A stretch of DNA of 32,000 nt from Crocosphaera sp. (GTDB lineage Bacteria > Cyanobacteriota > Cyanobacteriia > Cyanobacteriales > Microcystaceae). A model generated the notes under the pieces. The model made no database searches and was not told where the DNA came from. It saw only the letters and a list, made by a program, of their open reading frames with translations. The number at the start of each line of letters is the position of its first letter. Within the stretch, counting starts at the first letter, position 1. Location of the stretch: the NCBI GenBank assembly GCA_030064955.1, contig JASJDW010000020.1, forward strand, positions 4,310-36,309, in the 5' to 3' direction. The position numbers and the translations under genes are program-made. Positions 12,151 to 25,290 of the stretch are shown piece after piece.

Positions 12151-12582
12151 TCATTTCTTAGCTTCTAATCCTCCTGATTGATTTTTGATATACTCTTTGA
12201 CCACTTCTAATGGTGCGCCACCACAAGAAATTATACATTTAGAATCATGCCACAACTTGGCTTGTTTTCCCCAGTAAAATTGAGCAATATGCTCAGAATA
12301 CTTATTTCTTAGAATGCGACTACTAGCAGATTTTAGTGCAGCCACCAAATTAGAGATATTATTATCAGGATGTAAATCAATTAATAAATGAACATGGTCT
12401 GGTTCTAAATTACATTCAAGTAGAAAACTTTTATTTTTTTGTAAGACTCTACTAAATATTTCTTTGAGGTCATCCAACATCTTTTTAGTTAATACTTTTC
12501 GTCTATATTTCGTAACAAACACAATCTGTAAATGAATAGAAAAAACCGCATGAGAAATTTTCCTAAGTCCAATTTGTTTCAT
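12151..12582 (-). CDS. tnpA: IS200/IS605 family transposase TnpA (Y1/HUH)
   Basis: 143 aa. Has the HUH motif (DHVHLLIDLHP) and a C-terminal catalytic Tyr region (VVKEYIKNQ). Confidence 0.9.
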   Translation of the reverse strand: MKQIGLRKISHAVFSIHLQIVFVTKYRRKVLTKKMLDDLKEIFSRVLQKNKSFLLECNLEPDHVHLLIDLHPDNNISNLVAALKSASSRILRNKYSEHIAQFYWGKQAKLWHDSKCIISCGGAPLEVVKEYIKNQSGGLEAKK

Positions 12583-12647
12583 TTTAGAAATTAAGTGATA
12601 TAATTATACCAGCTTGTAAAGCGAGAGAGTAGTTATAAAGAGTTACA

Positions 12648-14063
12648 ATGTTTACTGTTACTCGACGATATACATTTCGATTATATCCAAATAAAGCCCA
12701 AATGTCAAAGCTGTTTGAGGCGAGACGGTTACATTGTTATCTCTATAATGCAGCTATTTCTCATCGTAAAACTGAGTATCAATACTTTTCTAACTCTGTT
12801 AGTTATTTCCAACAGCAAAATGCTCTACCTGCTTTTAAAGAATGTTGGCCAGAATATAAAGAACTGAATTCTCAAACCCTACAGGCTACTATTAAAAGGG
12901 TAGATTTGAGTTATAACCGATTCTTCCAAGGATTGTCTAAAAAGCCCAAGTTCAAATCGATTCGAGACTATTCAGGTTGGACTTATCCAGGACACAGTGG
13001 ATGGGAGGCTTTAACTGAGGGTAAACATGGTCAAGTTCGTTTGAGAGATTTAGGCATAACTATCAGAATGAGAGGCCAAGCTAAACAATGGGGAACTCCC
13101 ACAACTTTGACTATTATTTACAAGCCTTATCTTAACCAATGGTTCGCTAGTTTTACTGTTAATGTAGCTATTCAAGAAACCTTATTTGCTTCTGATAGTG
13201 AGCTTAAATATCAATCAATAATTTCTATTGATTTAGGAACTGAAACGGCATTGACTGCCTATGATGGTCAAGAGTTTCTAGAAGTAGAAAATCAAAGATT
13301 TGCTAGGGGGGCCCAGAAAAAGATACAGTCTGCATCTAAACAATTAAGGAGGAAAAAATGTCCTAATCATAGAGAAAAAATCAAAGCTTCTCAACGTTGG
13401 AAGAAAGCTAGAAAGCAAGTTTCTAAACTTCAAAGAAAAGTGGCGGCACAAAGGAAAAATTGGCAGCATCAGGTAACAACAGAAATTGCTAGTCGTTATG
13501 ACATCGTTGTTACTGAGAAGTTAGAAACTAAAAAAATGACCCGTAAAGCTAAACAGGGTAGTAAGAGAAGCGGTGCGACCCCGCGCCGTTGCACGGCGCA
13601 AGGGAACGCGCACCAAGTAGCTGGACTTAATAAGTCAATTTTAGATGTGGGTTTTGGCAGTCTTAATAAATTGATTACCTATAAAATTGAAGCCAAAGGG
13701 GGATTAGCTTTATTTCTTCCGACCTTAAAAATCAAACCTTCACAGCGTTGTCCTAATTGTGGAACAGTGCATAAAGATTGGGCTGATTTGTCTAATCGTT
13801 ACCATGTCTGCAATGCTTCGGACTGTAATTTTGAGGGTCCAAGAGATAGAGGTTCTGTGATGGTTATGTACAACGTTGCTACCAATCAGCAACAGGGGTT
13901 GGGAACCAGCCTCTCAGACTGTGGATGCTTTAGCTCTACTGATTCGACCAAGAAGCGCAAGCATACTGGCTCGATGAAGCAACTAGGGCAGAAGAAACGT
14001 CAAAAGTCCCTTCTTGGAAGTTCGAGGTCTTCTGAAACCCCAACTTCTCAAAAGTTGGGGTAG
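12648..14063 (+). CDS. tnpB: IS605 OrfB / TnpB RNA-guided endonuclease
   Basis: 471 aa. RuvC-like residues lie in ISIDLGTE, VVTEKLE and PRDRGS. Zinc finger is CPNCG...CNASDC. The C-terminal ~60 aa are basic, low-complexity read-through of the predicted RNA-coding region. Confidence 0.9.
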   Translation: MFTVTRRYTFRLYPNKAQMSKLFEARRLHCYLYNAAISHRKTEYQYFSNSVSYFQQQNALPAFKECWPEYKELNSQTLQATIKRVDLSYNRFFQGLSKKPKFKSIRDYSGWTYPGHSGWEALTEGKHGQVRLRDLGITIRMRGQAKQWGTPTTLTIIYKPYLNQWFASFTVNVAIQETLFASDSELKYQSIISIDLGTETALTAYDGQEFLEVENQRFARGAQKKIQSASKQLRRKKCPNHREKIKASQRWKKARKQVSKLQRKVAAQRKNWQHQVTTEIASRYDIVVTEKLETKKMTRKAKQGSKRSGATPRRCTAQGNAHQVAGLNKSILDVGFGSLNKLITYKIEAKGGLALFLPTLKIKPSQRCPNCGTVHKDWADLSNRYHVCNASDCNFEGPRDRGSVMVMYNVATNQQQGLGTSLSDCGCFSSTDSTKKRKHTGSMKQLGQKKRQKSLLGSSRSSETPTSQKLG

Positions 14064-14072
14064 TTCATCGAA
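13900..14072 (+). ncRNA. Candidate TnpB-associated omega-RNA (reRNA) scaffold overlapping the tnpB 3' end
   Basis: Called from position (the last ~170 nt of an IS605-family element), visibly higher GC than the rest of tnpB, several short stems and the strong terminal hairpin 14038-14060. No covariance evidence is available. Confidence 0.35.
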
Positions 14073-14485
14073 CGATAAACAATGAATTGATTACGGTTAC
14101 GATTGTCAATTCTTTCATAGATTAACTGATCCACACTAATTTGTGCTAAATAAACCCCCAAACCGCCAATGTCTCGTTCTGATAAAGGATTTTCTAAATT
14201 ATTTGGGGTTGGCTGTTGAGTCGGATCATAAGGAATTCCTGTGTCTTCTAAGTAAATTGTTAAGGCTTTTTGATCGAGTTTTGCTTGTAATTCTACAGTT
14301 CCCTGACCTTTTTGATGAGCATATCCGTGTTCAATAATATTAGTGGCAATTTCATCAACTGCACGACGAAGATTATTGCTTTTTTTGCGATCTAATCCAG
14401 CTTTTTGAGAGATTTCTTTAACATAATCGGAAATAACGCTTAAGGAATCTCTGAGGGCAGGAACAATTAATTTTTCACCATTCAT
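14048..14485 (-). CDS. RsbW/SpoIIAB-type anti-sigma-like serine kinase (HATPase_c)
   Basis: N-box: VDEIATNIIEHGY. G-boxes: EDTGIPYDP and GGLGVYL. I prefer the ATG at 14485 (MNGEKLIVPA), preceded by aaggaactaaca; the track start is 14512. The last 6 codons (MNYPNF) are encoded by the IS right end. Confidence 0.8.
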   Translation of the reverse strand: MNGEKLIVPALRDSLSVISDYVKEISQKAGLDRKKSNNLRRAVDEIATNIIEHGYAHQKGQGTVELQAKLDQKALTIYLEDTGIPYDPTQQPTPNNLENPLSERDIGGLGVYLAQISVDQLIYERIDNRNRNQFIVYRSMNYPNF

Positions 14486-14654
14486 TGTTAGTTCCTTGTA
14501 ATTATATACCATTTCCTGGACTCATGAGGTACAGCTAATATTCAACTTCTGAACTCCTGCTGGGGAGCATCGGGCGAAGCCTGCCCTACCGAACTCCTAA
14601 ATCCTAAAACTAGAAGAGTTTGTCCCTCACAAGTATGGGAACTGCTATAATTAA

Positions 14655-14984
14655 TCAATCGGATATTTCATCTTCATTCTTAACGAGAATGACACTATGA
14701 TGAAAACCTGTTTTTTCGATGGTATCTAAGACAATTTCTTGTGCGCCTACCACATAAATATCAACCTGTTTTCCCATTTTTTGTTTGGCAAAGATGAGGA
14801 TTCTTAATCCAGCACTAGCCATATATTCTAAGTCTTCCATTAATAAAATAAGACAGCTTGGTTTTAAGGTTGCGGCTTCTTCAATTTTCTGTTTCAATTG
14901 TTCTGCATTACTACCATCTAATTCTCCTGAAAGAATAATTTTAGCTGTGTTGTTGGTGGTTTCTAAAGTGGTGGTTAAGTTCAT
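14655..14984 (-). CDS. STAS-domain anti-sigma-factor-antagonist-like protein
   Basis: Conserved phosphorylatable-serine motif LEYMASAGLRILIF. I place the start at the internal ATG 14984 (MNLTTTLE), because the longer track ORF would overlap glgX. Confidence 0.85.
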   Translation of the reverse strand: MNLTTTLETTNNTAKIILSGELDGSNAEQLKQKIEEAATLKPSCLILLMEDLEYMASAGLRILIFAKQKMGKQVDIYVVGAQEIVLDTIEKTGFHHSVILVKNEDEISD

Positions 14985-15030
14985 CTTTTTTGGACTGTTA
15001 GTGAATAAGAATGTGAGTGTGAAACTGTGT

Positions 15031-17157
15031 TTATTGGGCCTTGCCAACCAAAATGACAATAGAGCGATCGCCGAGTAAAATTTGAGATTGATCAGCTAAT
15101 GGGGGTTCTTTTCCTGGTTGATAACAATCATCGGGTGAACAACAACCCGTATTGACAAAAATATGCCAAGTTAGGCCGTGGGGAAGTTGAGGGAGTTCAA
15201 ACCCCAAAGTCTCCCAATACATATTCATGGCAACATAGATATAGTCGTCTGTTTGGGTTCGGAGTTGACTGTGTTGACCACACAACATAAAGGCTAAAGT
15301 TTGATGATTTTCTGACCAGTCAACAAACCATTTTTTGGTTCCATGCCAACTAATATCAGCATAACCACTTCCCACATAGTCAGTGTTGGCAAAATGAGTA
15401 CGGTTCCTTAAGATAGGATGGGTTTGACGAAAGGCAATACAATGCTTGACAAAGCGTAATAAGTCAGCATTTTGAGCGAGAAGTTCCCAATTAAACCAAT
15501 TTAGGGGAGAATCATGGCAATAGGTGTTATTGTTGCCTTGTTTGGATCGTCCCACTTCATCCCCCATCAATAACATGGGAACTCCTTGGGATACCATCAG
15601 TAAAGCGATGGCGTTTCGCATTTGTCGCTGTCTTAACTGGTTAATATGAGGATCATCGGTCCATCCTTCTACTCCACAGTTCCAACTCTCGTTATTATTC
15701 TCCCCGTCGTTATTATTCTCCCCATTCGCATCGTTGTGTTTCTGGTTATAGGAAACGAGATCCCCTAAGGTGAAGCCATCATGGGCGGTGATAAAATTGA
15801 TAGAAGTAGACGGTGGACGGTTAGCGTGGGCGTAGAGATCAGGGGAACCTTGTAAACGTTGGGCAACTTCGCCGATATTCCCTTGACCTTTGAGAAATTT
15901 ACGCAGGGTGTCACGATATTTCCCATTCCATTCTGACCAACGGCCAAAGGCTGGAAATGATCCCACTTGATAAAGTCCTCCAGCATCCCAAGCTTCAGCA
16001 ATCAGTTTACACTTGGCTAAAACGGGATCAAAGGCTAAGGTTTCGAGGAGGGGAGGGTTGGCTAAGGGAGTTCCCCAAGGATCTCGTCCTAAGATGGAGG
16101 CAAGATCAAAACGAAAGCCATCAATATGATATTCTGAAGCCCAATAGCGCAAACAGTCAAGTACCAAATTTCGCACAATAGGATTATTACAATTAAGGGT
16201 ATTACCACAACCACTAAAGTTGAAATAATAACCTTCTGGGGTCAACATATAATAGGTTTTGTTATCAATTCCACGAAAGGAAATATATAGACCGTTTTCA
16301 TTGCCTTCTGCTGTGTGATTGAAGACCACATCTAAGATAATCTCAATCCCATTTTTGTGCAAATCTTTCACTAAAGTTTTCAGTTCATCCATTTGCATTC
16401 CTAATTTTCCGGTCGCAGCATAACCAGCTTTTGGGGCAAAAAATCCGACGCTACTGTATCCCCAATAGTTATATAAAGTTTCTCCTGTAGTGGGAGATTT
16501 TTTAGAATTTTCAAATTCATCAAATTCAAAAATAGGCATTAATTCAACAGCATTAATTCCTAAGTCTTTTAAATAAGGAATTTTTTCCCTAAGTCCGGCA
16601 AATGTTCCTGGGTATTTAACCTTTGATGAGGAATGTTGAGTAAAACTCCGAAGGTGCATTTCATAAATAATTAAGTCTTCTAGGGGAGTTTCTAAGGGTT
16701 TATCGTCTTCCCAATCAAAGTCATCTAAAGCGATTCTAGCACGATGTTGATAAATATTATGACAGTTAGGTTCTTGTCCCCAAATATCTCTTCCTCCGAT
16801 TACTTTAGCATAGGGATCTAACAGGATTTTATTAATATCAAACCAATGACCTTCTTGGGGATTAAATAACCCATCAAAACGATAACCATATTCAATGTTT
16901 TCGTAGTCTAAATCAAAAACTATCATACTGTAGACATTGCCGATCTTAAATTCATTGGGGAAAGGGATTTCTACTAAAGGAGTTAAAGCGTGTTTTTCAA
17001 ATAAAACGAGCGTACAAGCAGTCCCATGACTAGAATAAATGGAGAAGTTCACCCCTCCAGGAATAATGGTTGTCCCAAAAGGAAAAGGTTTTCCACGACG
17101 TAGTTTAAAGTTTTGGTAATTGTGGGTTGGATAAGTATCAATTCGCTCTAACATCAT
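15031..17157 (-). CDS. glgX: Glycogen debranching enzyme GlgX (GH13 isoamylase-type)
   Basis: 708 aa. The N-terminal domain (PFPFGTTIIPGGVNFSIYS) is followed by GH13 regions VILDVVFNHT, GFRFDLASIL, LIAEAWD and FITAHDGF, then HNDANGENNNDG...SWNCGVEG, which is typical of GlgX. Confidence 0.9.
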   Translation of the reverse strand: MMLERIDTYPTHNYQNFKLRRGKPFPFGTTIIPGGVNFSIYSSHGTACTLVLFEKHALTPLVEIPFPNEFKIGNVYSMIVFDLDYENIEYGYRFDGLFNPQEGHWFDINKILLDPYAKVIGGRDIWGQEPNCHNIYQHRARIALDDFDWEDDKPLETPLEDLIIYEMHLRSFTQHSSSKVKYPGTFAGLREKIPYLKDLGINAVELMPIFEFDEFENSKKSPTTGETLYNYWGYSSVGFFAPKAGYAATGKLGMQMDELKTLVKDLHKNGIEIILDVVFNHTAEGNENGLYISFRGIDNKTYYMLTPEGYYFNFSGCGNTLNCNNPIVRNLVLDCLRYWASEYHIDGFRFDLASILGRDPWGTPLANPPLLETLAFDPVLAKCKLIAEAWDAGGLYQVGSFPAFGRWSEWNGKYRDTLRKFLKGQGNIGEVAQRLQGSPDLYAHANRPPSTSINFITAHDGFTLGDLVSYNQKHNDANGENNNDGENNNESWNCGVEGWTDDPHINQLRQRQMRNAIALLMVSQGVPMLLMGDEVGRSKQGNNNTYCHDSPLNWFNWELLAQNADLLRFVKHCIAFRQTHPILRNRTHFANTDYVGSGYADISWHGTKKWFVDWSENHQTLAFMLCGQHSQLRTQTDDYIYVAMNMYWETLGFELPQLPHGLTWHIFVNTGCCSPDDCYQPGKEPPLADQSQILLGDRSIVILVGKAQ

Positions 17158-17187
17158 AATTTCTCTTGAATAACTAGATCAAGTTTT

Positions 17188-17769
17188 TTAGTTATTTTTT
17201 GTTGCTTTAGAATACAACCAAAAAGCAAATATTCTGGTCATACGAGGCATAACAATATAAGTCATTAAATGCACTAAAATTACTGTTAAAATTAATGTCC
17301 TTTGTGGAGAAGGCAAATTACTTAAAATAGGGGCAAGGATCAAGTTAATTAAGTTAACCAATGGAAAGATTGCTAACCAAGTAATGACAGCCATTTTATA
17401 GCGTGGTGGAGGAATAATAGGTTTATTTCTCGAAAGCGTAAACCAAGTTTCTAACCCTGTAATTACTTCTATTATGGGTGATCCAACTGTTAAACTTTCT
17501 CCTCTTGCAAACCATTGACGACGACATTTTGAGCGTTCCCAACGTTCTAAGTTACTACGAGTATTGAATTTAAAAACGATTAAATATTCTCTATGAGTTG
17601 GATCGGTGGGGGGAAAAACGTTAGTCCCTAAATGTCCTTCAAAAGTCATTGACGCATTAATAATTCCTATCAGAAATTCCTCAAATTCTTTTTCACACCC
17701 TGGTTTAACTATCCGTTTAACAGTAACAGTTACAGGGGGATTATCATCAGTATTAGTTTGACGTTCCAT
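17188..17769 (-). CDS. ABM (antibiotic-biosynthesis-monooxygenase-like) domain protein with C-terminal transmembrane helices
   Basis: 193 aa. The N-terminal ferredoxin-like ABM pattern (VTVTVKRIVKPGCEKEFEEFL...YLIVFKFNTRSNLERWERS) is followed by three hydrophobic segments. The start codon lies inside the 3' end of the upstream STAS gene (17-nt overlap). Confidence 0.6.
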   Translation of the reverse strand: MERQTNTDDNPPVTVTVKRIVKPGCEKEFEEFLIGIINASMTFEGHLGTNVFPPTDPTHREYLIVFKFNTRSNLERWERSKCRRQWFARGESLTVGSPIIEVITGLETWFTLSRNKPIIPPPRYKMAVITWLAIFPLVNLINLILAPILSNLPSPQRTLILTVILVHLMTYIVMPRMTRIFAFWLYSKATKNN

Positions 17770-18097
17770 TGACTTGTATTAAGGCTGTTTCAAGATTATT
17801 ACTAAGGGTAAAAAAGTTGAGAAATCCTGTTACTTCCATCACATCTTTTACATCTTCAGACAGTCCAATTAAAATAACTTGACCTGCTTGATTTTTAGCT
17901 TGTTTATAGAGGTTTAATAAAACTCTTAAACCAGCACTTGACATATATTCAACTTCAGTTAAATTTAAGATAATTTTGCTCTGAGGGGTTAATAATGGTA
18001 GTAGTTTTTCTTGAACCATAGATGAAGTTTGTCCATCCATATCTCCTATGAGTTCAGCAATACAAACATCTTGTTGATTTTTGAGATTGATTTCCAT
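17753..18097 (-). CDS. STAS-domain anti-sigma-factor-antagonist-like protein
   Basis: Conserved motif VEYMSSAGLRVLLNL. I place the start at ATG 18097 (MEINLKNQ), 46 nt after the upstream gene's stop. Confidence 0.85.
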   Translation of the reverse strand: MEINLKNQQDVCIAELIGDMDGQTSSMVQEKLLPLLTPQSKIILNLTEVEYMSSAGLRVLLNLYKQAKNQAGQVILIGLSEDVKDVMEVTGFLNFFTLSNNLETALIQVNGTSN

Positions 18098-18143
18098 AAT
18101 AAATACCTGAATAGTGATGAAATTAAGGGAAGAAAAAACTTTT

Positions 18144-19961
18144 TTAAACAGGAACAATGGTAACCTTTACTTTAACTCTTTGTTCTGTTTTAGGAAGGTT
18201 GACAGTTAACTTATCCGCATCAAAATCATAATAAGATTCTCCCTCTATTTCCACTGAATTTATTTTGATAGAACCTGGGGGTAAAATATCAGGAGAAACC
18301 CTTAAAATATTATCAGAAAATCCTCCTGGTAAGGGTTTAAAATAAAAGTCCATAGGTTGTTTAGTAATCAATAAATTGGTATAAACGGCTGCTAAATAAC
18401 ATAACTCAAAGGAATGATAACCACTCATAGAATGACTCCCTTTTCCTCTTTCATTACCACCACTTAAATAAGGAATACCATTGGCTAAAACATTGAAGTA
18501 AACCCCTCCATCTTCTATGTCTAAAAACCAAGCATTATAAAAGGCCGCTGCTTCACGAGAAAAGCGATGATATTCTTCATTCTGAAGACAACCTGTTAAG
18601 ATTAAATAAGCCAAAATAGCTTGTTCTTGTTGCCACCAAGCTTTGCGATCGTGCCACACAAAACGATAAAATTCTTCCCCTGGTTGTAAACATCTTTCTA
18701 CCACATCATACCATCCTCCACGCTGGCGATCGCTACCAACGTCAGGCATAATATTAGCGATATTTGTTGCTAGTTTAAGATACTTTTCTTTGGGGTTTAA
18801 ACTATACATTCGCATTAAGTTCCAAGCAATTTTTAAGTTGTGGCCAACTACAGCACGATTTTGTTGCCATCCCCAGGTTATATCTGCTGTCCAATCTTCA
18901 TTGAATCTTTCTTGTACATAGGGACTATTTTCGGGATCTGGAAAGTATTTTTCAATGGTATCAAAGGTATCTTCTAGCATTTTTTCATATTCTTTGTTGC
19001 CTGTTGCTAACCATAAATTAATCAAATAAGCTGGAGCATGATCTCCAATAGAATTCCAATTTTTCTTAGCTTTATTCTGTCCTAAAGAATCACTTTTTGG
19101 ATCTAGAGTAACTGGATCAATATGAGAAAAATATCCACCATTTTCACTTTTATCTAGAAAAAAGTTATCAAAAAGCTTAATGGTTAACTCAGTATCTTTT
19201 AAGATAGCGGGATCACCATTAATTCGATAGGTTTGAACGGGGCCAGCAAGAGCATAAATTTGTTCATAAGCAGGAATAGCATGATAATCATCCCCAAATT
19301 CTGAGGCAAATATTTTTTGTTCTCGAATACCTTGAACATCAATGCCATGATACCAATAAACAATATCTTCATCAAGATCGAGAAATCTCATATGTTCTCG
19401 TAAATATTCAGTACCTTTTTCTGCTGCTTCTAAAAATTCATCTTTTCCTGTTAATAAATAAGCCGTTGCAAAACCATATACGAGACGGGATATGGTATCG
19501 GTTTCTTGACTAAAGTTATCAGAAGATCTTTCCCCAGATAAAGCTAAATTCGTTCTATAATTACGATAATTAATCTCACCTTCAGGAAATTGAGAGTTTA
19601 AATAAAAATGACCTAAAGATGCAATTTGATTAACCCACCATTGAGGTTTCTCAAAGCGGTATTCATCAGGATTTCGACCTAAAAATATAATTTGTTTAGC
19701 TTCAAATTTAGAACTATCAGGATAAAAAATACCATAAGTAAATAAATAGCGGCCAGGGGTTAACATAGTCCGCATTGTTCCTGTCGCATCGGGATAAGGT
19801 TCATCTAAGTTTTGAATAAGTTTAGCATAAGTCATGGGGGTTAATAAGGCTGTAAATTCTCGATTATCTGATGTTTTTATGCCAAAAATATCATTAGTTT
19901 GATCAAAGTAAGTAACGTATCCAGCAATCAGATCAGAGAAGGGAAAAGTAATGTTATTCAT
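18144..19961 (-). CDS. AGE-family (N-acylglucosamine 2-epimerase-like) (alpha/alpha)6-barrel protein with ~150-aa N-terminal extension
   Basis: 605 aa. Repeated aromatic/acidic helical-hairpin pattern and an AGE-like motif VVGHNLKIAWNLMR. The assignment is by eye only, and substrate specificity is unknown. Confidence 0.5.
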   Translation of the reverse strand: MNNITFPFSDLIAGYVTYFDQTNDIFGIKTSDNREFTALLTPMTYAKLIQNLDEPYPDATGTMRTMLTPGRYLFTYGIFYPDSSKFEAKQIIFLGRNPDEYRFEKPQWWVNQIASLGHFYLNSQFPEGEINYRNYRTNLALSGERSSDNFSQETDTISRLVYGFATAYLLTGKDEFLEAAEKGTEYLREHMRFLDLDEDIVYWYHGIDVQGIREQKIFASEFGDDYHAIPAYEQIYALAGPVQTYRINGDPAILKDTELTIKLFDNFFLDKSENGGYFSHIDPVTLDPKSDSLGQNKAKKNWNSIGDHAPAYLINLWLATGNKEYEKMLEDTFDTIEKYFPDPENSPYVQERFNEDWTADITWGWQQNRAVVGHNLKIAWNLMRMYSLNPKEKYLKLATNIANIMPDVGSDRQRGGWYDVVERCLQPGEEFYRFVWHDRKAWWQQEQAILAYLILTGCLQNEEYHRFSREAAAFYNAWFLDIEDGGVYFNVLANGIPYLSGGNERGKGSHSMSGYHSFELCYLAAVYTNLLITKQPMDFYFKPLPGGFSDNILRVSPDILPPGSIKINSVEIEGESYYDFDADKLTVNLPKTEQRVKVKVTIVPV

Positions 19962-20025
19962 GAGTCAAGATTTTTGGTTTTTACGAGAAACAGCAAGAGA
20001 ATTTTGTAGATGGCAAAAATGAGAT

Positions 20026-20475
20026 TTAAGGTACTTGTTTTTGTTCTATATCATTAATACGATAAATTCGTACATCAGCAGGTTGTTTAAGAATTTCACT
20101 ATAGGTTTCAGTGAGATTTTGTGTGTAAGATTTTTGAAGATGTTCTTCAAAAGCTTGTTCATTTTTCCAGTCTTCAAAGAAAAAGAATAAATTTGGGGTG
20201 TTTTTATCTTCATAAAACACATAACTATTAACTCCTTCTTCTGTTTCATTGGTCTTAGTTTGTACAATATTTGCTAAGTCAAGAAACCTTTGACGGTATT
20301 CAGGTTTAACTTCTAAATAAGCAATCACAATTAAAGGTTTTTCTGTGATGACTTGTTGCGTTTGAGCATAAGTTGATGAAGAGTTTAGACTGTGTTGTTG
20401 ATGATTATAAATACCAAAACCAACAATCAGAGAAGCCGTAATTAATAGAGGGTAAATTTTGCCAATGAGTTTCAT
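20026..20475 (-). CDS. Secreted ABM-domain protein (YgiN-type quinol-monooxygenase-like fold)
   Basis: 149 aa. N-terminal signal-like helix (MKLIGKIYPLLITASLIVGFGIY), then an ABM pattern IVIAYLEVKPEYRQRF...FFFFEDWKNEQAFEEHLQ. Confidence 0.6.
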   Translation of the reverse strand: MKLIGKIYPLLITASLIVGFGIYNHQQHSLNSSSTYAQTQQVITEKPLIVIAYLEVKPEYRQRFLDLANIVQTKTNETEEGVNSYVFYEDKNTPNLFFFFEDWKNEQAFEEHLQKSYTQNLTETYSEILKQPADVRIYRINDIEQKQVP

Positions 20476-20500
20476 GGTTAACTCCTTAAAATAATGGAAA

Positions 20501-22078
20501 CTAAATGCGTCTGACTGCTAAAATAGTGATATCGTCAGACTGTTCTTGATCACCCGTATGAACAAAAACTTTATGTCGAATTGTATCTACAATTTCTTGA
20601 GATGAATCAAAAGGATTTTCAACAATTTTCAAAACAGTTTCCCTCGAAAAAAATTCTTTATTTGAGTTGCGTGCTTCTGTAACGCCATCGGTATAACCTA
20701 AGAGAATATCTCCTGATTCTAGGAAAATGTTTTCAATCTCAAATTCAACATCTGCTAACATTCCAACAGCCATACCTGTTGCTTCTAAAGATTGTTTAAT
20801 TTTTCCATTTTTGTTGATAATTAAAATGGGTTCATGACCTCCATTAATATAACTTAATTGATAAGAATCTAAACATAACACTCCCATAAATAAAGTAGCA
20901 AACATTCCTTCATTTCCATGATTATTAGCGATGTAATCATTGGTTAATTGAACCGTTTTTAAAAAGCTTTTTGCAGTTACTTTAGATTCATGACTTGAGT
21001 AAGAGCGAGCCGTAAAAATGCGAATTAAACTCCTAAATAATCCCATAAATAAAGCAGCACTAACTCCCTTACCACAAACATCAGCAATGACAAAAGCAAT
21101 ATTATTGTTGGGAAGTTCAAAAACATCATAAAAATCTCCAGCAACTCGACGAGCAGGGGAAGTAAAAGCAGCAATTTCTATACCTGGTTTTTGCAATAAT
21201 TCATGAGGTAAAAAAGCCTTTTGCATCAAGCGACCTTTTTCTAATTCTTGATCAAGTGCTTGAGAATAAGCTGCTTCTCTTTCTAAACTTTTTTGAAGGG
21301 CTAATTCTGCTTGTTTACGTTGATAAATTGCTTCAGTAATTTGATTAAACATTTGCTTAAAAGCAGAAATTACGTCCCCTAATTCATCCTCTCTTCTCAA
21401 AGAAGCAGAAGAAAATTTTGGAGGTCTTTGATCATAAAAAATAGCTTCTCCTGCTGCTAATAAATCCCATCGCAATCGAAAAATAGGTATCAATACAATT
21501 GGTTCTAAAGCAATCCAAATAACAATAGTCATGAAAGCAGAAATAATCACAACTAAGCCGATTATTCTGCCAATATAAGCTATTAATCCCCTTAAAACTG
21601 AAGAAGCATCATGACGAAGAATAATTGTATATTTGGTTTCCATCTGTGAACCTGACCAAACCACATCATCATAAAAACTTCCTTGACGTTGAGGTTTATA
21701 ACTATCAATTTCAGATATAGAAATATTAGGAGAATTGCCGAATGTCCCTACAATTTCTCCAGAAGCATAATAAACAGATCCTCCTTTGAGAAAACTATTG
21801 TTTTCTTGTAATTCTTGTAATCTATCGATTAGTTGTTCTCCAGATATTTGAGGATAGGTAATCAAAATCCAAGCAACTTTTCCTGATGAAACTTCTTTTA
21901 TTTGCGATAAAAGTTCCCGCTCACGATATTGAACAGAAGGCACTAAAATAATCCCCTCAATCACAACAATTCCGCTAAAAACCCAAAAAATAATTTTTCG
22001 GGATAAAGGAGACTTTAACCTACTTTTTAAGCGAAGAATGTTTCGTTGGAGAAATTTTTTAGAATTTAGGCCAAACAT
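20501..22078 (-). CDS. Membrane sensor PP2C (SpoIIE/RsbU-type) serine phosphatase with HAMP linker, IcfG-like
   Basis: 525 aa. Two TM helices bracket a ~120-aa extracytoplasmic segment, followed by a HAMP/coiled-coil region. PP2C motifs: RVAGDFYDVF, ADVCGKGVSAAL, NGGHEP, YTDGVTEA, SDDITILAVRRI. Confidence 0.85.
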   Translation of the reverse strand: MFGLNSKKFLQRNILRLKSRLKSPLSRKIIFWVFSGIVVIEGIILVPSVQYRERELLSQIKEVSSGKVAWILITYPQISGEQLIDRLQELQENNSFLKGGSVYYASGEIVGTFGNSPNISISEIDSYKPQRQGSFYDDVVWSGSQMETKYTIILRHDASSVLRGLIAYIGRIIGLVVIISAFMTIVIWIALEPIVLIPIFRLRWDLLAAGEAIFYDQRPPKFSSASLRREDELGDVISAFKQMFNQITEAIYQRKQAELALQKSLEREAAYSQALDQELEKGRLMQKAFLPHELLQKPGIEIAAFTSPARRVAGDFYDVFELPNNNIAFVIADVCGKGVSAALFMGLFRSLIRIFTARSYSSHESKVTAKSFLKTVQLTNDYIANNHGNEGMFATLFMGVLCLDSYQLSYINGGHEPILIINKNGKIKQSLEATGMAVGMLADVEFEIENIFLESGDILLGYTDGVTEARNSNKEFFSRETVLKIVENPFDSSQEIVDTIRHKVFVHTGDQEQSDDITILAVRRI

Positions 22079-22125
22079 CTTAATTCAAAGTTGTTGTGAG
22101 TAAGGAGCAAAACAAAAAGTGAAGG

Positions 22126-22167
22126 GTTTAATCATTAATGTGAATGATTAAACTTGATTTTTTTGTC
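22126..22167. terminator. Perfect 11-bp hairpin with T-tracts, separating the OYE gene from the phosphatase gene
   Basis: gtttaatcatt-aatgtg-aatgattaaac (22126-22153). On the plus strand it is followed by ttgattttttt; on the minus strand by ccttcactttttgtttt. It starts 16 nt after the OYE stop. Confidence 0.5.
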
Positions 22168-22168
22168 A

Positions 22169-23278
22169 TTAATTCAAGGTTAAGTTAGCTCTTTCTAAAA
22201 AAGGGTAATCGATATATCCTTCTTTTCCTTGAGTATAAAAAGTAGAGCGATCATAATTATTTAGAGGTGCATTCAATTCAAATCTTTTTGGTAAGTCAGG
22301 GTTAGCAATAAATAGTCTTCCGTAAGCAACTAAGTCTGCATCTTCTGCTGCTAAAACTTCATTTCCTGTGTGTTTTGTATACCCTCCTGCTGTTATCAGA
22401 GTCCCTTGAAAAATAGGTCTAAAAAATTCAACTCCTAACCCACTACTTTGATCTTCATCATGTTTATCTCCTTTAATTCTAGGTTCAACAATGTGAAGAT
22501 AAGCTAAATTAAAGTGGTTCAGTTTTTGAGCAACATAACTAAATAAAGCTTCTGGGTTAGAATCAGACATATTCATAAATGTACTTGAAGGTGATAATCT
22601 GACTCCCACTCTTTTACTGTTCCAAACTTTAGTAACTGCTTCGGTTACTTCCATCAAAAAACGAGCGCGGTTTTCAATACTTCCTCCATATTTATCAGTG
22701 CGTTTATTGGAGCCATCTTGTAAAAATTCATCGAGTAAATAACCATTAGCACTGTGAATTTCTACCCCATCAAATCCTGCTTGTTGTGCATTTTTAGCAG
22801 CTTGAGCATACTGTTGTACAATTTGGGGAATTTCTTCTGTTTCTAATGCACGAGGGGTAACAAAGGGTTTTTCTCCTTCGTAGGTAGCGGCCATTCCTTC
22901 TGGTGCGATCGCACTGGGTGCCACGGGAAGTTCCCCATTCGGTTGCAGAGATGGGTGCGAAACCCGTCCAACGTGCCATAGTTGCATAAAAATGCGTCCC
23001 CCTTGTTGATGCACTGCTTCAGTGACTGACTTCCAACCTTCTATTTGCTGAGGAGAATGAATACCTGGAGTATGGGGATATCCGACTCCTTGGGGGGAAA
23101 TTTGCGTTGCTTCGGTAATAATTAAAGCAGCATTACTACGTTGTCGATAATACTCTACATTCATGGGTTGAGGGACATTTCCCTCTCCAGCACGCATTCG
23201 GGTTAAAGGTGCCATAACAATGCGTGAGGGTAGGTTTAAATCACCTAATTTGTAAGAGGAAAAAAGATTAGTTTGCAT
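22169..23278 (-). CDS. Old Yellow Enzyme family NAD(P)H:flavin oxidoreductase / alkene reductase (NemA/OPR-like)
   Basis: 369 aa. Motifs: MAPLTRMRA, ITEATQISPQG..YP.TPGIH, GGRIFMQLWHVGR, GVEIHSANGYLLDEFL, NKRTDKYGGSIENRARF. Confidence 0.9.
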   Translation of the reverse strand: MQTNLFSSYKLGDLNLPSRIVMAPLTRMRAGEGNVPQPMNVEYYRQRSNAALIITEATQISPQGVGYPHTPGIHSPQQIEGWKSVTEAVHQQGGRIFMQLWHVGRVSHPSLQPNGELPVAPSAIAPEGMAATYEGEKPFVTPRALETEEIPQIVQQYAQAAKNAQQAGFDGVEIHSANGYLLDEFLQDGSNKRTDKYGGSIENRARFLMEVTEAVTKVWNSKRVGVRLSPSSTFMNMSDSNPEALFSYVAQKLNHFNLAYLHIVEPRIKGDKHDEDQSSGLGVEFFRPIFQGTLITAGGYTKHTGNEVLAAEDADLVAYGRLFIANPDLPKRFELNAPLNNYDRSTFYTQGKEGYIDYPFLERANLTLN

Positions 23279-23393
23279 TGACTTATAGTGTCCAGTTTGG
23301 AGAATAATGCTGTCAAAAGATATGAGTTATAAGAGTGGGAATGTTTTTGATATTTTTTGTTTAGTACAACCCACTCCTATAATTAGGAAGAAA

Positions 23394-24026
23394 TTAAGAT
23401 GTAACTAACTCTTTATTAGTTTTATTCATTTCATCTAAGAAGAGTTGCATAAATTCTTCAACAACTCCTGGATGTTTTCCTGTAATGAGACTGCCATCTA
23501 CATAAGTTGCTGCTGTTTCATTACCGTTATACATAATAATCCCACCAGCATTTTCCACATCACAAATTATATTGTGAGCGCAGGTCACCTTACGGTTTTG
23601 AATTAGGTTAGGATCAGCACAGAAAAGCCATAAACTATGACAAATAGTTCCAATTTTTAAGTGATTCTGATCCATTAATTTGACTGATTCACGAAGAAAC
23701 TCAACAGCAGGAGATTTATTCAGTTGATTCGGTTCAGGATTCACTTGATAACGAAGGCGATCCATCGCATAACCACCTATTAAAATGATTCCTTGATAAT
23801 CAGTTAGTTTAACATCTTTGAAATCGATGGTAACGGTTACTTCTTCTTCATGGTCATTACCTTTAAAAGTTAGGCTGGATTGTCCCCAAAGATTGGAAAT
23901 GTATTCAACTTCATAACCATTTGTAGGGAAAAATTGGTTAAATCTTCGGTATTCAGTTTCATCAAAATGTTCTTCGATGAGAACACCTATTTTTCCTTTG
24001 ATTTCTGTATTCATTGTTACTACCAT
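23394..24026 (-). CDS. DJ-1/PfpI (class I glutamine-amidotransferase-like) family protein
   Basis: 210 aa with a nucleophile-elbow-like GTICHSLWLF and the flanking GIILIGGYAMD. An alternative ATG lies at 24014. The stop of the upstream gene is 6 nt away. Confidence 0.75.
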   Translation of the reverse strand: MVVTMNTEIKGKIGVLIEEHFDETEYRRFNQFFPTNGYEVEYISNLWGQSSLTFKGNDHEEEVTVTIDFKDVKLTDYQGIILIGGYAMDRLRYQVNPEPNQLNKSPAVEFLRESVKLMDQNHLKIGTICHSLWLFCADPNLIQNRKVTCAHNIICDVENAGGIIMYNGNETAATYVDGSLITGKHPGVVEEFMQLFLDEMNKTNKELVTS

Positions 24027-24032
24027 ACTTAA

Positions 24033-24389
24033 CTAACTATCAGCAAAAATTTCATTCAACATTCCAAAACAACCAGCAGCTTTATTAAAGCCAGCATAAA
24101 CACAAGTAAACAGCAATAATTCCTCAATTTCTTCTTTGGTTGCTCCTTGTTTAATCGCCATATTGACATGAGCAGCAAAAGGATTTCCTGGACCCGTTTG
24201 ATCTTGATTAACAACATCAATAGCAATAGTAATTAAAGCTTTAGTTTTCTGATCAATAAGCGGCAAACCCCAGGCTTCACCAGCAACACGGGTACAAAAG
24301 TCTCCAAATTTTGGATTAATACTGTTTAATCCTGCTTGTAATTCTTGGTCGTCAAGAACAGCATTTTTATACATTGTAATTTCCGTCAT
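24033..24389 (-). CDS. Carboxymuconolactone decarboxylase (CMD/AhpD-like) family protein
   Basis: 118 aa. CMD-type helices: DQKTKALITIAIDVV...HVNMAIKQGATKEEIEELLLFTCVYAGFNKA. Confidence 0.75.
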   Translation of the reverse strand: MTEITMYKNAVLDDQELQAGLNSINPKFGDFCTRVAGEAWGLPLIDQKTKALITIAIDVVNQDQTGPGNPFAAHVNMAIKQGATKEEIEELLLFTCVYAGFNKAAGCFGMLNEIFADS

Positions 24390-24393
24390 AACT

Positions 24394-25253: not shown

Positions 25254-25290
25254 GTAAAATTAATTATTGACATATACCTTGTTTTATGAG

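What the first reader, a model, noticed from the sequence alone, without database searches (positions are those of the whole stretch)
14048..22078. icfG-type partner-switching set in one gene string with GlgX, an AGE-family protein and two ABM proteins, and no sigma factor
Eight consecutive minus-strand genes (22078 down to 14048) are separated by only -17 to +142 nt. In order they are: a HAMP-PP2C phosphatase (AGDFYDV, DVCGKG, GGHEP, TDGVTEA, DDITILAV), a signal-peptide ABM protein, a 605-aa AGE-like protein, a STAS protein (YMSSAGLRVL), an ABM+TM protein, GlgX isoamylase, a second STAS protein (YMASAGLRIL), and an RsbW-type kinase (EIATNIIEHG, DTGIPYD, GGLGVYL). All parts of a Bacillus-style partner switch are present, yet no sigma factor or other classical output is encoded nearby. 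Established knowledge, as I recall it: Synechocystis PCC 6803 carries the icfG cluster (slr1856-slr1861: STAS, isoamylase-type GlgX, STAS, PP2C IcfG, kinase). That cluster is genetically linked to glucose/inorganic-carbon metabolism and has no identified downstream target. This locus is a rearranged, expanded version with a membrane-sensor phosphatase, an AGE-like enzyme and two ABM proteins. My inference is that the switch output is post-translational control of storage-glucan catabolism, or of a membrane ABM protein, rather than transcription.
Basis: partly seen in the sequence, partly recalled or inferred. Interest (0 to 1): 0.78.

Follow-up and report, generated by a model that had tools for sequence, protein, structure and literature searches.

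The report
Local variant of cyanobacterial icfG operon
This gene string is one species' version of the long-known cyanobacterial icfG operon, a phosphorylation switch sitting among sugar-enzyme genes. Related genomes in which the switch protein is fused to one of those enzymes suggest the switch acts on the enzymes directly.

Summary
Eight minus-strand genes at 14048-22078 encode a PP2C phosphatase, two ABM proteins, an AGE-like protein, two STAS proteins, GlgX and an RsbW-type kinase. No sigma factor lies in the 32-kb window.

The locus is not a new or expanded system. It is the orthologue of the Synechocystis slr1852-slr1861 (icfG) operon, which already includes the AGE-like gene (slr1855). 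The order DJ-1, AGE, STAS, GlgX, STAS, kinase recurs across cyanobacterial orders: GlgX in 45/46 loci and kinase in 35/37. The conserved string runs on to 24963.

Only three things are lineage-specific: the phosphatase sits upstream, and OYE and two ABM genes are inserted. That arrangement occurs in 5 of 62 loci.

A 2025 study reports that Slr1861 acts as an anti-SigC factor.

New here:
- A paralogous cluster fuses the AGE-like protein to a STAS domain (about 723 aa, at least 115 protein clusters).
- Distant relatives fuse the AGE-like protein to DJ-1.
- The AGE-like protein lacks one of the two catalytic histidines of AGE-family epimerases.

This supports direct STAS-enzyme coupling. It does not show whether the enzymes are the switch's output or its input. 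The locus is a new member of a known kind and of moderate interest.

The parts
24394..24963 (-). 189-aa conserved protein of unknown function. By position it corresponds to slr1852 and is the first gene of the conserved string.
   Evidence: ORF. No Pfam family. Found upstream of the AGE-like gene in 30/40 loci that have enough flank, at 63-92% identity.
24033..24389 (-). Carboxymuconolactone-decarboxylase (CMD/AhpD-like) protein, in the slr1853 position.
   Evidence: Pfam CMD, E 2e-13. Conserved upstream in 26/40 loci.
23394..24026 (-). DJ-1/PfpI family protein, in the slr1854 position.
   Evidence: Pfam DJ-1_PfpI, E 2e-17. Lies directly upstream of the AGE-like gene in 38/55 loci. Distant AGE-like relatives are fused to a DJ-1 domain (P0259, P0261, P0262, P0272).
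22169..23278 (-). Old-yellow-enzyme type NADH:flavin oxidoreductase, a lineage-specific insertion into the string.
   Evidence: Pfam Oxidored_FMN, E 6e-93. At this position only in L001-L004 and L036.
20501..22078 (-). Membrane PP2C (SpoIIE-type) phosphatase: TM 27-51, a loop of about 107 aa, TM 159-203, a HAMP-like segment, a coiled coil, and the PP2C domain at 324-524.
   Evidence: Pfam SpoIIE, E 9e-47. Weak, below-cutoff NCBIfam match to the SiaA phosphatase model over residues 172-523. HAMP is only sub-threshold. TM segments. Full-length homologues occur in 17 loci, upstream of AGE in only 5.
20026..20475 (-). 149-aa ABM-fold protein with an N-terminal hydrophobic segment (signal peptide or membrane anchor).
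   Evidence: Pfam ABM, E 2e-15. Hydrophobic segment at residues 3-22. Close homologues at this position only in L001-L004 and L036; weaker ABM homologues lie upstream of the cluster in about ten other loci.
18144..19961 (-). 605-aa AGE-like protein (slr1855 orthologue): N-terminal beta domain, (alpha/alpha)6 barrel, C-terminal beta sandwich.
   Evidence: Pfam GlcNAc_2-epim, 53.8 bits. AF2 model pTM 0.84. Foldseek top hits are glucose and cellobiose 2-epimerases, mannose isomerase and YihS. 67-95% identical across cyanobacterial orders. H374 is kept, but K377 and Q445 replace the Glu and the second catalytic His; these residues are invariant in 241 sequences.
17753..18097 (-). STAS1 (114 aa), a SpoIIAA/RsbV-type antagonist in the slr1856 position. 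Phospho-acceptor motif YMSSAGLR.
   Evidence: Pfam STAS, E 3e-24; TIGR00377, 99 bits against cutoff 53. ATG start confirmed by independent gene call. The Ser is invariant in 49/49 orthologues.
17188..17769 (-). 193-aa ABM domain protein with two C-terminal TM helices. It overlaps the STAS1 stop by 17 nt and is a lineage-specific insertion.
   Evidence: Pfam ABM, E 2e-5. PF27539 Y2318_C in the precomputed annotation. TM 125-152 and 156-178. Present only in L003, L004 and L036.
15031..17157 (-). GlgX-type isoamylase (708 aa), orthologue of Synechocystis GlgX2/slr1857.
   Evidence: TIGR02100, 698.8 bits against cutoff 640.9. GH13 regions I-IV with D351, E388 and D460 are intact here and in 50/50 orthologues. 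70-79% identical to the in-cluster GlgX of other genomes. The published slr1857 primer hits the start of the L043 in-cluster GlgX.
14655..14984 (-). STAS2 (109 aa), in the slr1859 position. Phospho-acceptor motif YMASAGLR.
   Evidence: Pfam STAS, E 2e-16; TIGR00377, 79.5 bits. Gene call. The Ser is invariant in 48/48 orthologues. The STAS domain fused to AGE in the paralogous cluster is closest to this class (43% against 21% for STAS1).
14048..14485 (-). RsbW/SpoIIAB-type serine kinase (145 aa), in the slr1861 position.
   Evidence: Pfam HATPase_c_2, E 5e-22. RsbW and SpoIIAB equivalogs match but score below their cutoffs. Full length relative to orthologues. The M10 start is supported by the alignment and by the gene call.
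12151..14063 (.). IS200/IS605 element (tnpA 12151-12582 minus strand, tnpB 12648-14063 plus strand) that bounds the string. It is not part of the system.
   Evidence: Pfam Y1_Tnp and OrfB_IS605. The 3' end of tnpB overlaps the kinase stop by 16 nt.

Best explanation
The locus is the local form of the pan-cyanobacterial icfG operon (Synechocystis slr1852-slr1861).

Its conserved core is a small metabolic set: DJ-1/PfpI, an AGE-like (alpha/alpha)6 protein and a GlgX2-type GH13 enzyme. A phosphorylation switch is layered on that core.

**Proposed mechanism**
1. The RsbW-type kinase phosphorylates the conserved serine of the two STAS proteins.
2. The PP2C phosphatase reverses this. Its sensor domain differs between lineages; here it is a two-TM, HAMP-like membrane sensor.
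3. The phosphorylation state decides which partner each STAS protein holds. Unphosphorylated STAS binds the kinase. It also docks on the AGE-like/GlgX2 enzyme pair and changes that pair's activity.
4. Phosphorylation of the STAS proteins releases the kinase, which then sequesters a group-2 sigma factor encoded elsewhere (SigC in Synechocystis).

The switch would therefore link an alpha-glucan-derived sugar pathway of unknown chemistry to growth-limiting transcription.

**Basis of each step**
- Shown here: gene content, orthology, synteny, the fusions and the catalytic-residue status.
- Taken from the literature on the orthologues: kinase and phosphatase activities and the SigC link.
- Inferred: STAS binding to the separate AGE-like and GlgX proteins, and the direction of control.

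OYE and the two ABM proteins are read as lineage-specific pathway accessories, not switch components.
For: **Orthology**
- The order u189, CMD, DJ-1, AGE, STAS, GlgX, STAS, kinase (with PP2C) recurs in Nostocales, Oscillatoriales, Pleurocapsales, Microcystis, Trichodesmium, Pseudanabaena and Leptolyngbya-like genomes.
- In Synechocystis salina (L043) the order is AGE, STAS, GlgX, STAS, a 634-aa PP2C and a 143-aa kinase.
- The published slr1857 primer hits the start of the L043 GlgX.
- The Slr1861 residues named in PMC12329169 (R38, L39, D42, E43, L44, T46, N50) fall at the same numbers in the L043 kinase sequence aligned.
- slr1852-1862 is described as a single operon that contains Slr1855.

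**Switch biochemistry in the orthologues**
- Slr1861 phosphorylates Slr1856, Slr1859 and Ssr1600.
- IcfG dephosphorylates Slr1856.

**STAS-enzyme coupling**
- A 723-aa AGE::STAS fusion carrying PF07221 and PF01740 occurs in at least 115 90%-identity clusters from several orders.
- The linker in the fusion is only about 5 residues, and the AF2 model has pTM 0.79.
- That fusion gene is always preceded by a GlgX paralogue.
- In the unfused form, each enzyme gene is followed by its own STAS gene at a median gap of 68-84 nt.
- The phospho-acceptor Ser is invariant in both STAS classes and is mostly Ser or Thr in the fused domain.

**The metabolic core is older than the switch**
- Relatives at 44-47% identity sit in DJ-1, AGE, GH13-CBM48 neighbourhoods with no STAS, kinase or PP2C. 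Some of them are AGE::DJ-1 fusions.

**Precedents for enzyme outputs**
- The Anabaena STAS-glycosyltransferase All4160.
- SiaC-SiaD, HsbA-HsbD and BgrV-BgrR.
Against: - No direct evidence shows that the free-standing STAS1 or STAS2 binds the AGE-like protein or GlgX. A fusion shows functional linkage, not its direction.
- The fused STAS is only 43% identical to STAS2 and 21% to STAS1.
- The SigC link in Synechocystis already supplies a transcriptional output, and that could be the only one.
- The evidence for Slr1861-SigC binding is itself indirect: holoenzyme content and modelling.
- GlgX2/Slr1857 has no measured activity and no knockout phenotype.
- The chemistry of the AGE-like protein is unknown, and it lacks a canonical catalytic His.
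- Co-transcription in this organism is untested. The promoter and terminator scan was uninformative.
- About 5 of 60 loci lack a detectable STAS gene after AGE.
Confidence: 0.5

Rival explanations
1. Purely transcriptional partner switch. The kinase is an anti-sigma factor for a sigma factor encoded elsewhere (SigC-type). The two STAS proteins are only its antagonists. The AGE-like protein, GlgX2, DJ-1 and the other enzymes are co-transcribed cargo, so that regulator and carbon enzymes share a promoter without touching each other.
For: Slr1861 is reported as an anti-SigC factor and a kinase of three STAS proteins. All switch parts have the canonical motifs. Knocking out GlgX2 gives no phenotype.
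Against: This reading does not explain the recurrent AGE::STAS fusion, which sits in clusters with no kinase or phosphatase within 10 kb. It also does not explain the strict one-STAS-after-each-enzyme pattern kept across orders.
Confidence: 0.25
2. The enzymes are the input rather than the output. The AGE-like barrel, which has lost a catalytic histidine, acts as a sugar-binding sensor. It holds or releases a STAS protein according to a glucan-derived metabolite. That sets how much STAS is free to engage the kinase, and so how much sigma factor is released. The fusion would then resemble RsbR or YtvA, which have an N-terminal sensor domain and a C-terminal STAS domain.
For: The fusion has a sensor-STAS-like order, with the large domain N-terminal and STAS C-terminal. 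The second catalytic His is replaced by an invariant Gln and the Glu by Lys. icfG and slr1859 mutants have glucose and inorganic-carbon phenotypes.
Against: The AGE-like protein is extremely conserved and has many invariant polar barrel residues, as expected of an enzyme. The GH13 catalytic triad of GlgX is also intact. Relatives sit in clearly metabolic neighbourhoods without any signalling genes.
Confidence: 0.17
3. One reading: the switch output is the membrane ABM protein (17188-17769), whose gene overlaps STAS1.
For: The 17-nt overlap with STAS1 suggests translational coupling.
Against: The gene is present in only 3 of 62 related loci, or 4 counting the window, whereas the STAS, kinase and enzyme genes are nearly universal. 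Small proteins of the ABM, EthD and SnoaL types recur as neighbours of AGE-like genes even where no switch exists.
Confidence: 0.03

Closest known systems
Synechocystis sp. PCC 6803 icfG cluster, the slr1852-slr1861/1862 operon (Beuf 1994 and Shi 1999 as cited in PMC12329169; PMC8670252)
   Same: The gene families and core order are the same: slr1852-like, CMD, DJ-1, AGE-like (slr1855), STAS (slr1856), GlgX2 (slr1857), STAS (slr1859), PP2C and an RsbW-type kinase (slr1861). No sigma gene lies in the cluster.
   Different: Here the phosphatase lies upstream of the AGE-like gene rather than between STAS2 and the kinase. It has a two-TM, HAMP-like N-terminus in place of the IcfG N-terminus. OYE and two ABM genes are inserted. 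An IS200/IS605 element abuts the kinase gene.
Bacillus RsbU/RsbV/RsbW-sigmaB and SpoIIE/SpoIIAA/SpoIIAB-sigmaF partner switches
   Same: A STAS antagonist with a phosphorylatable Ser, a GHKL Ser kinase and a PP2C phosphatase.
   Different: There is no sigma factor in the operon. There are two STAS proteins, each paired with an enzyme gene. The kinase scores far below the RsbW and SpoIIAB equivalog cutoffs.
Anabaena PCC 7120 HenR / Alr3423 / All4160 partner-switching-like module, with the STAS-glycosyltransferases All2285 and XssP (bioRxiv 10.64898/2026.04.08.717354)
   Same: A cyanobacterial STAS domain attached to a carbohydrate enzyme and controlled in trans by an RsbW-type kinase and a SpoIIE-type phosphatase. 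The output is non-transcriptional.
   Different: [quoted passage not shown] Here the STAS proteins are free-standing, or in the paralogue C-terminally fused, and the partner is a soluble AGE-like barrel with a GH13 enzyme.
Pseudomonas aeruginosa SiaABCD, and the HsbR/HsbA/HsbD and BgrSTUWV systems (PMC8457831)
   Same: A PP2C phosphatase, a kinase and a STAS-like protein whose unphosphorylated form binds and activates an enzyme. The window phosphatase gives a weak, below-cutoff NCBIfam match to the SiaA phosphatase model (residues 172-523).
   Different: The output enzyme in those systems is a diguanylate cyclase. The match to SiaA scores 58 bits against a cutoff of 700, so this is not an orthologue.
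AGE-superfamily sugar 2-epimerases and isomerases (cellobiose 2-epimerase, glucose 2-epimerase, mannose isomerase, YihS)
   Same: The (alpha/alpha)6 barrel fold (Foldseek E 1e-10 to 1e-7, target TM 0.6-0.7) and the first catalytic His (H374).
   Different: Extra N- and C-terminal beta domains. The second catalytic His is Gln445 and the Glu that follows the first His is Lys377, both invariant. Sequence identity is 13-19%.

Membership tests
icfG operon (slr1852-slr1861 type) | A STAS, GlgX-type isoamylase, STAS gene run with an RsbW-type kinase and a PP2C on the same strand | tested here: met
   The order is the same as in L043 (Synechocystis salina) except for the position of the PP2C.
icfG operon (slr1852-slr1861 type) | Upstream genes of the operon: AGE-like (slr1855), DJ-1, CMD and an slr1852-like gene | tested here: met
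   The operon content of Synechocystis is given in PMC8670252.
icfG operon (slr1852-slr1861 type) | Orthology to the Synechocystis genes rather than a convergent assembly | tested here: met
   72-73% identity for AGE and GlgX with conserved synteny to L043. The slr1857 primer matches the L043 GlgX start. No gene trees were built.
icfG operon (slr1852-slr1861 type) | The kinase phosphorylates both STAS proteins and the PP2C dephosphorylates the first | not testable with these tools
   Known for Slr1861 and IcfG only from the literature. The acceptor Ser and the catalytic motifs are present here.
icfG operon (slr1852-slr1861 type) | Transcription as one unit | tested here: inconclusive
   Same strand and short gaps. 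The consensus promoter and terminator scan was no different from shuffled sequence.
Bacillus-type sigma-factor partner switch | A SpoIIAA/RsbV-class STAS protein with a phosphorylatable Ser | tested here: met
   TIGR00377 at 99 and 79.5 bits against cutoff 53. The Ser is invariant.
Bacillus-type sigma-factor partner switch | An RsbW/SpoIIAB equivalog kinase | tested here: inconclusive
   Pfam HATPase_c_2 is above its cutoff. The NCBIfam RsbW equivalogs score 44 bits (NF003144, cutoff 145) and 38.5 bits (TIGR01924, cutoff 155), and SpoIIAB scores 29 against 135.
Bacillus-type sigma-factor partner switch | A cognate sigma factor gene in or next to the operon | tested here: not met
   No sigma-70 domain among the Pfam-scanned ORFs of at least 100 aa in the window. 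tblastn with sigma-70 regions 2 and 4 gave no hit in the window and a hit in only 1 of the 84 related loci searched. Divergent ECF sigma factors could escape this test.
GlgX glycogen debranching enzyme (TIGR02100) | Score above the equivalog cutoff and an intact GH13 catalytic triad | tested here: met
   698.8 bits against 640.9. D351, E388 and D460 and regions I-IV are present.
GlgX glycogen debranching enzyme (TIGR02100) | Debranching activity on glycogen | not testable with these tools
   The orthologue Slr1857 showed no activity in a coupled GlgP assay and no mutant phenotype.
AGE-family 2-epimerase/isomerase | (alpha/alpha)6 barrel of the AGE type | tested here: met
   Pfam PF07221 above its cutoff. 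Foldseek hits to 2-epimerases and isomerases.
AGE-family 2-epimerase/isomerase | The pair of catalytic histidines, with a Glu three residues after the first. The role of these residues is from established knowledge of RmCE, AGE and YihS. | tested here: not met
   The HMMER alignment to 8bry gives GHNLK against GHAIE and WWQQE against WWPHNE. K377 and Q445 are invariant in 241 sequences. The alignment is at low identity, so this needs structural confirmation.
STAS-fused enzyme under partner-switch-like control (All4160 type) | A STAS domain in the same polypeptide as the enzyme | tested here: not met
   In the window, STAS1 and STAS2 are separate genes. The feature is met only in the paralogous AGE::STAS proteins of other genomes.
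HAMP-domain sensor phosphatase | A HAMP domain between the last TM segment and the PP2C domain | tested here: inconclusive
   Pfam HAMP at E 0.044, 14.6 bits against cutoff 25, covering only the second helix. A DELGxxxxAFxxM-like motif is visible in the sequence.

The most novel reading that the evidence does not exclude
The icfG-type switch is physically wired to a soluble carbohydrate-enzyme complex made of the AGE-like protein, GlgX2 and perhaps DJ-1. These would carry out an undescribed alpha-glucan-derived reaction. The phosphorylation state of the STAS proteins would switch that complex on or off, or report its ligand state, while the same kinase gates a SigC-type sigma factor. This would explain why a seemingly inactive GlgX2 sits in the operon, and it would give a first direct bridge between a sugar pathway and growth-limiting transcription in cyanobacteria.
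Probability: 0.4. Interest if true: 0.7.

Novelty: new member of a known kind. Interest (0 to 1): 0.5.

Why it matters
The icfG cluster has been tied to glucose and inorganic-carbon acclimation since the 1990s, yet there is still no account of why an isoamylase paralogue and an epimerase-like gene sit inside a partner switch.

This work adds four points:
- The whole slr1852-slr1861 string is close to universal in cyanobacteria.
- The AGE-like protein is the hub. It is fused to STAS in one paralogous line and to DJ-1 in distant relatives.
- The AGE-like protein lacks a canonical catalytic histidine.
- The enzyme core predates the switch.

Together these turn a vague association into concrete binding and activity tests that can be run in Synechocystis with existing mutants and antibodies. 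If the coupling holds, it would add a soluble sugar-enzyme output or input to the growing list of non-sigma partner switches, and it would link that output to the recently described SigC growth-control cascade.

Tried and rejected
- **Promoter and terminator scan of 13800-25400.** It found 37 promoter-like sites against 39.8 expected and 10 terminator-like sites against 7.3 expected, so it says nothing about the transcription unit.
- **HAMP.** Only a sub-threshold partial match, so I do not call the phosphatase a HAMP protein.
- **PDB sequence search with the AGE-like protein.** The matches were weak (E 1e-4 to 1e-5). They were useful only for checking residue alignment.
- **Shi et al. 1999.** The paper is not held. 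Its results are cited only through PMC12329169.
- **Cluster-member look-up.** It gave no taxon names for the distant AGE-like relatives, so the lineages of L085, L088 and L089 are undetermined.
- **L088 (distant AGE::STAS).** It has no GlgX, kinase or PP2C nearby and adds little.
- **One alignment call failed** because the coordinates were out of frame. The alignment was redone in Python.
- **Truncation of the kinase by the IS element: rejected.** The kinase is full length relative to its orthologues.
- **Chance adjacency: rejected** on the synteny counts.
- **The fused STAS as a simple fusion of the AGE-STAS1 gene pair: rejected.** The fused domain is closer to STAS2.
- **A canonical 2-epimerase role for the AGE-like protein: considered unlikely** from the catalytic-residue check.

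Full report
**1. Observation**

Pfam and NCBIfam assign them as follows:
- a SpoIIE-type PP2C (residues 324-524 of 525);
- an ABM protein with an N-terminal hydrophobic segment;
- a 605-aa protein with a GlcNAc_2-epim (AGE) match above the gathering score;
- a STAS protein;
- an ABM protein with two C-terminal TM helices;
- a GlgX above the TIGR02100 equivalog cutoff;
- a second STAS protein;
- a HATPase_c_2 kinase that matches RsbW and SpoIIAB below their cutoffs.

The window is an ENA metagenome scaffold. Independent gene calls on it agree with these ORFs. They fix the STAS starts at the ATG codons (114 and 109 aa) and the kinase at 145 aa. The closest named relatives of the AGE-like protein are Xenococcus/Xenococcaceae and other Pleurocapsales genomes.

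'HAMP' is only a sub-threshold match. The two TM segments are clear.

No ORF of at least 100 aa in the window that was scanned against Pfam carries a sigma-70 domain. A tblastn search with sigma-70 regions 2 and 4 finds nothing in the window.

The co-directional string continues upstream through OYE, DJ-1/PfpI, CMD and a 189-aa protein of unknown function, to 24963.

**2. What it is: the icfG operon, not an expanded relative of it**

I scanned one genome per species with the AGE-like protein. A tblastn search with all window proteins then gave the neighbourhoods.

Sixty-two loci have the unfused arrangement. Counting only loci with enough flank:
- a STAS gene follows AGE within 1.5 kb in 55/60;
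- GlgX follows in 45/46;
- a kinase follows in 35/37;
- two STAS genes are present in 35/37;
- DJ-1 lies directly upstream in 38/55;
- the slr1852-like gene lies upstream in 30/40, and CMD in 26/40.

These loci span Nostocales, Oscillatoriales, Pleurocapsales, Microcystis, Trichodesmium, Geminocystis, Pseudanabaena, Elainella and Pegethrix. Independent gene calls for Synechococcus sp. NIES-970 show the same order with Pfam labels.

Synechocystis salina (L043) has AGE, STAS, GlgX, STAS, a 634-aa PP2C and a 143-aa kinase. The published slr1857 forward primer hits the start of its GlgX. The Slr1861 residues named by Kurkela et al. fall at the same numbers in the L043 kinase sequence aligned.

The literature describes slr1852-1862 as one operon that contains 'Slr1855 N-acetylglucosamine 2-epimerase', Slr1856, GlgX and IcfG (PMC8670252). 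The AGE-like gene is therefore a standing member of the cluster, not an addition.

**3. What is specific to this window**

Only five loci share the upstream block of OYE, PP2C and ABM: L001-L004 and L036, from Xenococcus, a Microcoleaceae MAG, an Oscillatoriales MAG and Geitlerinema. Only three have the ABM-TM gene between STAS1 and GlgX.

The two-TM PP2C type is itself common. It occurs in 17 loci, usually downstream of the kinase. Other genomes put different sensor domains on the cluster phosphatase: HisKA-REC in NIES-970, and the IcfG-type N-terminus in Synechocystis. Swapping the input domain in this way is typical of RsbU/RsbP-type phosphatases.

The IS200/IS605 element abutting the kinase does not truncate it.

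**4. State of knowledge about the output**

Kurkela et al. 2025 (PMC12329169) report four things:
- Slr1861 binds and phosphorylates Ssr1600, a STAS protein encoded elsewhere;
- phosphomimetic Ssr1600 no longer binds;
- RNAP-SigC holoenzyme levels follow this pair;
- modelling supports competitive binding of SigC and Ssr1600 to Slr1861.

They also restate that Slr1861 phosphorylates Slr1856 and Slr1859, and that IcfG dephosphorylates Slr1856 only. A sigma factor encoded elsewhere is thus a likely output of the orthologous kinase.

The absence of a sigma gene beside the cluster is general. Only 1 of the 84 related loci searched has a group-1/2 sigma hit within 10 kb.

A preprint finds that GlgX2/Slr1857 has no debranching activity in a coupled assay and no knockout phenotype, while GlgX1 does the known job. 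'Control of storage-glucan catabolism' is therefore not an obvious reading.

**5. New evidence for a physical link between STAS and the enzymes**

Eighteen of the 80 loci carry a paralogous mini-cluster in which a GlgX paralogue (about 47% identical) is followed by an AGE paralogue (about 70%). The reading frame of that AGE paralogue runs straight into a STAS domain. In L051 this is a single 732-aa ORF.

A database search with that ORF returns at least 115 clusters of about 723 aa annotated with both PF07221 and PF01740. They come from Nostocales, Scytonema, Chlorogloeopsis, Symploca, Pleurocapsales and Gloeothece. In the complete genome of Nostoc sp. NIES-4103 it is called as one gene.

These clusters have no kinase or PP2C within 10 kb. 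They co-occur with an unfused cluster in at least two genomes: Nostoc sp. P12588 (L055 and L067) and Pleurocapsales LEGE 06147 (L010 and P0182).

The fused STAS is closest to the STAS2 class (43% against 21% for STAS1). It mostly keeps Ser or Thr at the acceptor position, with a minority of Ala, Gly, Pro or Asn.

In the AF2 model of the fusion, the STAS domain follows the C-terminal beta sandwich after about five residues. It is confidently folded (pLDDT 77-91, whole-chain pTM 0.79).

A gene fusion of this kind is classical evidence that two proteins work together. It does not say which one controls the other.

**6. The AGE-like protein**

It is 67-95% identical across cyanobacterial orders. 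The AF2 model (pTM 0.84) has three parts: an N-terminal beta domain, an (alpha/alpha)6 barrel and a C-terminal beta sandwich.

Foldseek matches the barrel to glucose and cellobiose 2-epimerases, mannose isomerase, YihS and AGE.

HMMER alignments to Pedobacter AGE (8bry) give two informative pairings:
- query GH374NLK377 against GHAIE;
- query WWQ444Q445E against WWPHNE.

From established knowledge of this superfamily, the two histidines are the acid/base pair. Here the first is kept, the second is Gln, and the Glu is Lys. All three positions are invariant in 241 homologues of both cluster types. The protein is therefore unlikely to be a canonical 2-epimerase. It may have a different chemistry or act as a binder.

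By contrast, the GH13 regions I-IV and the catalytic Asp, Glu and Asp of the cluster GlgX are intact in the window and in all 50 orthologues examined.

**7. The enzyme core is wider and older than the switch**

A search of 1.84 billion cluster representatives finds 916 relatives of the AGE-like protein. Several relatives at 42-47% identity carry a C-terminal DJ-1/PfpI domain (P0259, P0261, P0262, P0272).

Two such relatives were placed in their genomic context:
- L085 contains the AGE::DJ-1 fusion, a CBM48-GH13 enzyme, a TPP enzyme, a further DJ-1 and a GH77 MalQ.
- L089 contains DJ-1, AGE and a CBM48-GH13 enzyme, with a TPP enzyme, a ThiJ-like protein, two SnoaL_2 proteins, EthD, a glyoxalase and an MIase, and no STAS, kinase or PP2C.

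DJ-1, the AGE-like protein and a CBM48-GH13 enzyme thus form a recurrent metabolic trio tied to alpha-glucans. Small proteins of the ABM, EthD and SnoaL types are habitual neighbours of it. This makes the two ABM proteins of the window more likely pathway accessories than switch targets. Among the loci examined, the STAS, kinase and PP2C genes accompany this core only in the cyanobacterial clusters. The taxa of L085 and L089 were not determined.

**8. Mechanism**

My best reading has confidence about 0.5 as a whole. The orthology part alone is about 0.95.
1. The kinase and the membrane PP2C set the phosphorylation state of STAS1 and STAS2.
2. The unphosphorylated STAS proteins bind the kinase, and they also dock on the AGE-like/GlgX2 pair and modulate it.
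3. The kinase, when released, sequesters a SigC-type sigma factor encoded elsewhere.

Precedents for enzyme outputs exist:
- In Anabaena, the STAS-glycosyltransferase All4160 is negatively regulated by the kinase Alr3423 and needs the phosphatase HenR.
- SiaC-SiaD, HsbA-HsbD and BgrV-BgrR are further examples.

The rivals are as follows:
- A purely transcriptional switch with co-transcribed enzymes (0.25). This leaves the fusion unexplained.
- The reverse direction, with the AGE-like barrel acting as a sugar sensor that feeds the switch (0.17). This fits the sensor-then-STAS domain order and the lost histidine.
- The membrane ABM protein as output (0.03).

**9. Verdict**

The locus is a new member, with a minor rearrangement, of a known and very widespread operon. 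The interest lies in what the comparison exposes rather than in this window: the AGE::STAS and AGE::DJ-1 fusions, the altered active site, and the universal 'one STAS after each enzyme' layout. Together these make the old question of what the icfG cluster acts on directly testable.

Noticed in passing
window 12151-14063: An IS200/IS605 element (tnpA on the minus strand, tnpB on the plus strand) sits directly 3' of the kinase gene. The end of tnpB overlaps the kinase stop codon by 16 nt, in convergent orientation. A TnpB-associated RNA at that end would be antisense to the 3' end of the kinase. The same junction is present in a second metagenome scaffold (L087).
   Followed up: partly
window 28266-30284: A 672-aa GH13 alpha-amylase with a C-terminal CBM20 starch-binding domain lies on the same strand about 3.3 kb upstream of the conserved string. 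It is a second alpha-glucan enzyme near the cluster.
   Followed up: no
window 9442-11967: An 841-aa fusion of a sugar-nucleotidyl transferase (NTP_transferase plus hexapeptide repeats) with a phosphomannomutase/phosphoglucomutase, just beyond the IS element.
   Followed up: no
window 26497-26877, 27116-27547, 8404-8841: A MazF/PemK-type toxin gene and two DUF29 genes lie in the flanks. No antitoxin was looked for.
   Followed up: no
window 4942-6627 and 8881-9216: A 561-aa tyrosinase-domain protein with DUF7868, and a CsoR-type metal-sensitive repressor. Neither appears related to the cluster.
   Followed up: no
L051 12582-15703; L083 12503-15585: Downstream of the GlgX'-AGE::STAS mini-cluster, two genes are conserved in both Desmonostoc and Nostoc NIES-4103. 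One is a receiver domain fused to a pyridine-nucleotide-disulphide oxidoreductase. The other is a histidine kinase with a cNMP-binding domain. They may be an alternative regulatory input for the fused cluster.
   Followed up: no
L051 4360-7020: An 886-aa GH63/MGH1-like glycoside hydrolase lies upstream of the fused mini-cluster in Desmonostoc. In Nostoc NIES-4103 the upstream genes are instead SnoaL proteins, an alpha/beta hydrolase, an ADH and an aldo-keto reductase (L083).
   Followed up: partly
L023 14441-15115; L044 14646-14951 and 15999-16304: In Hormoscilla the STAS2 gene is a tandem double-STAS ORF of 230 aa. In Geminocystis CENA526 there are two identical STAS2 copies about 1.3 kb apart.
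   Followed up: no
L088 8611-11531: A distant AGE::STAS fusion (715 aa, 44% identity) abuts a TauE/SafE sulfite-exporter-family gene, whose start coincides with the last base of the fusion gene. No GlgX is nearby. Because YihS, the sulfoquinovose isomerase, belongs to the same superfamily, a sulfosugar link is conceivable, but nothing else supports it.
   Followed up: no
L085 and L089: A thiamine-diphosphate enzyme (TPP_enzyme_N/M/C) lies beside the AGE-like gene in both of the distant, switch-less neighbourhoods. It is absent from the cyanobacterial clusters.
   Followed up: no
window 24394-24963: The 189-aa first gene of the conserved string (slr1852 position) has no Pfam family, yet it is 63-92% identical across orders. 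It is an uncharacterised conserved member of the operon.
   Followed up: partly
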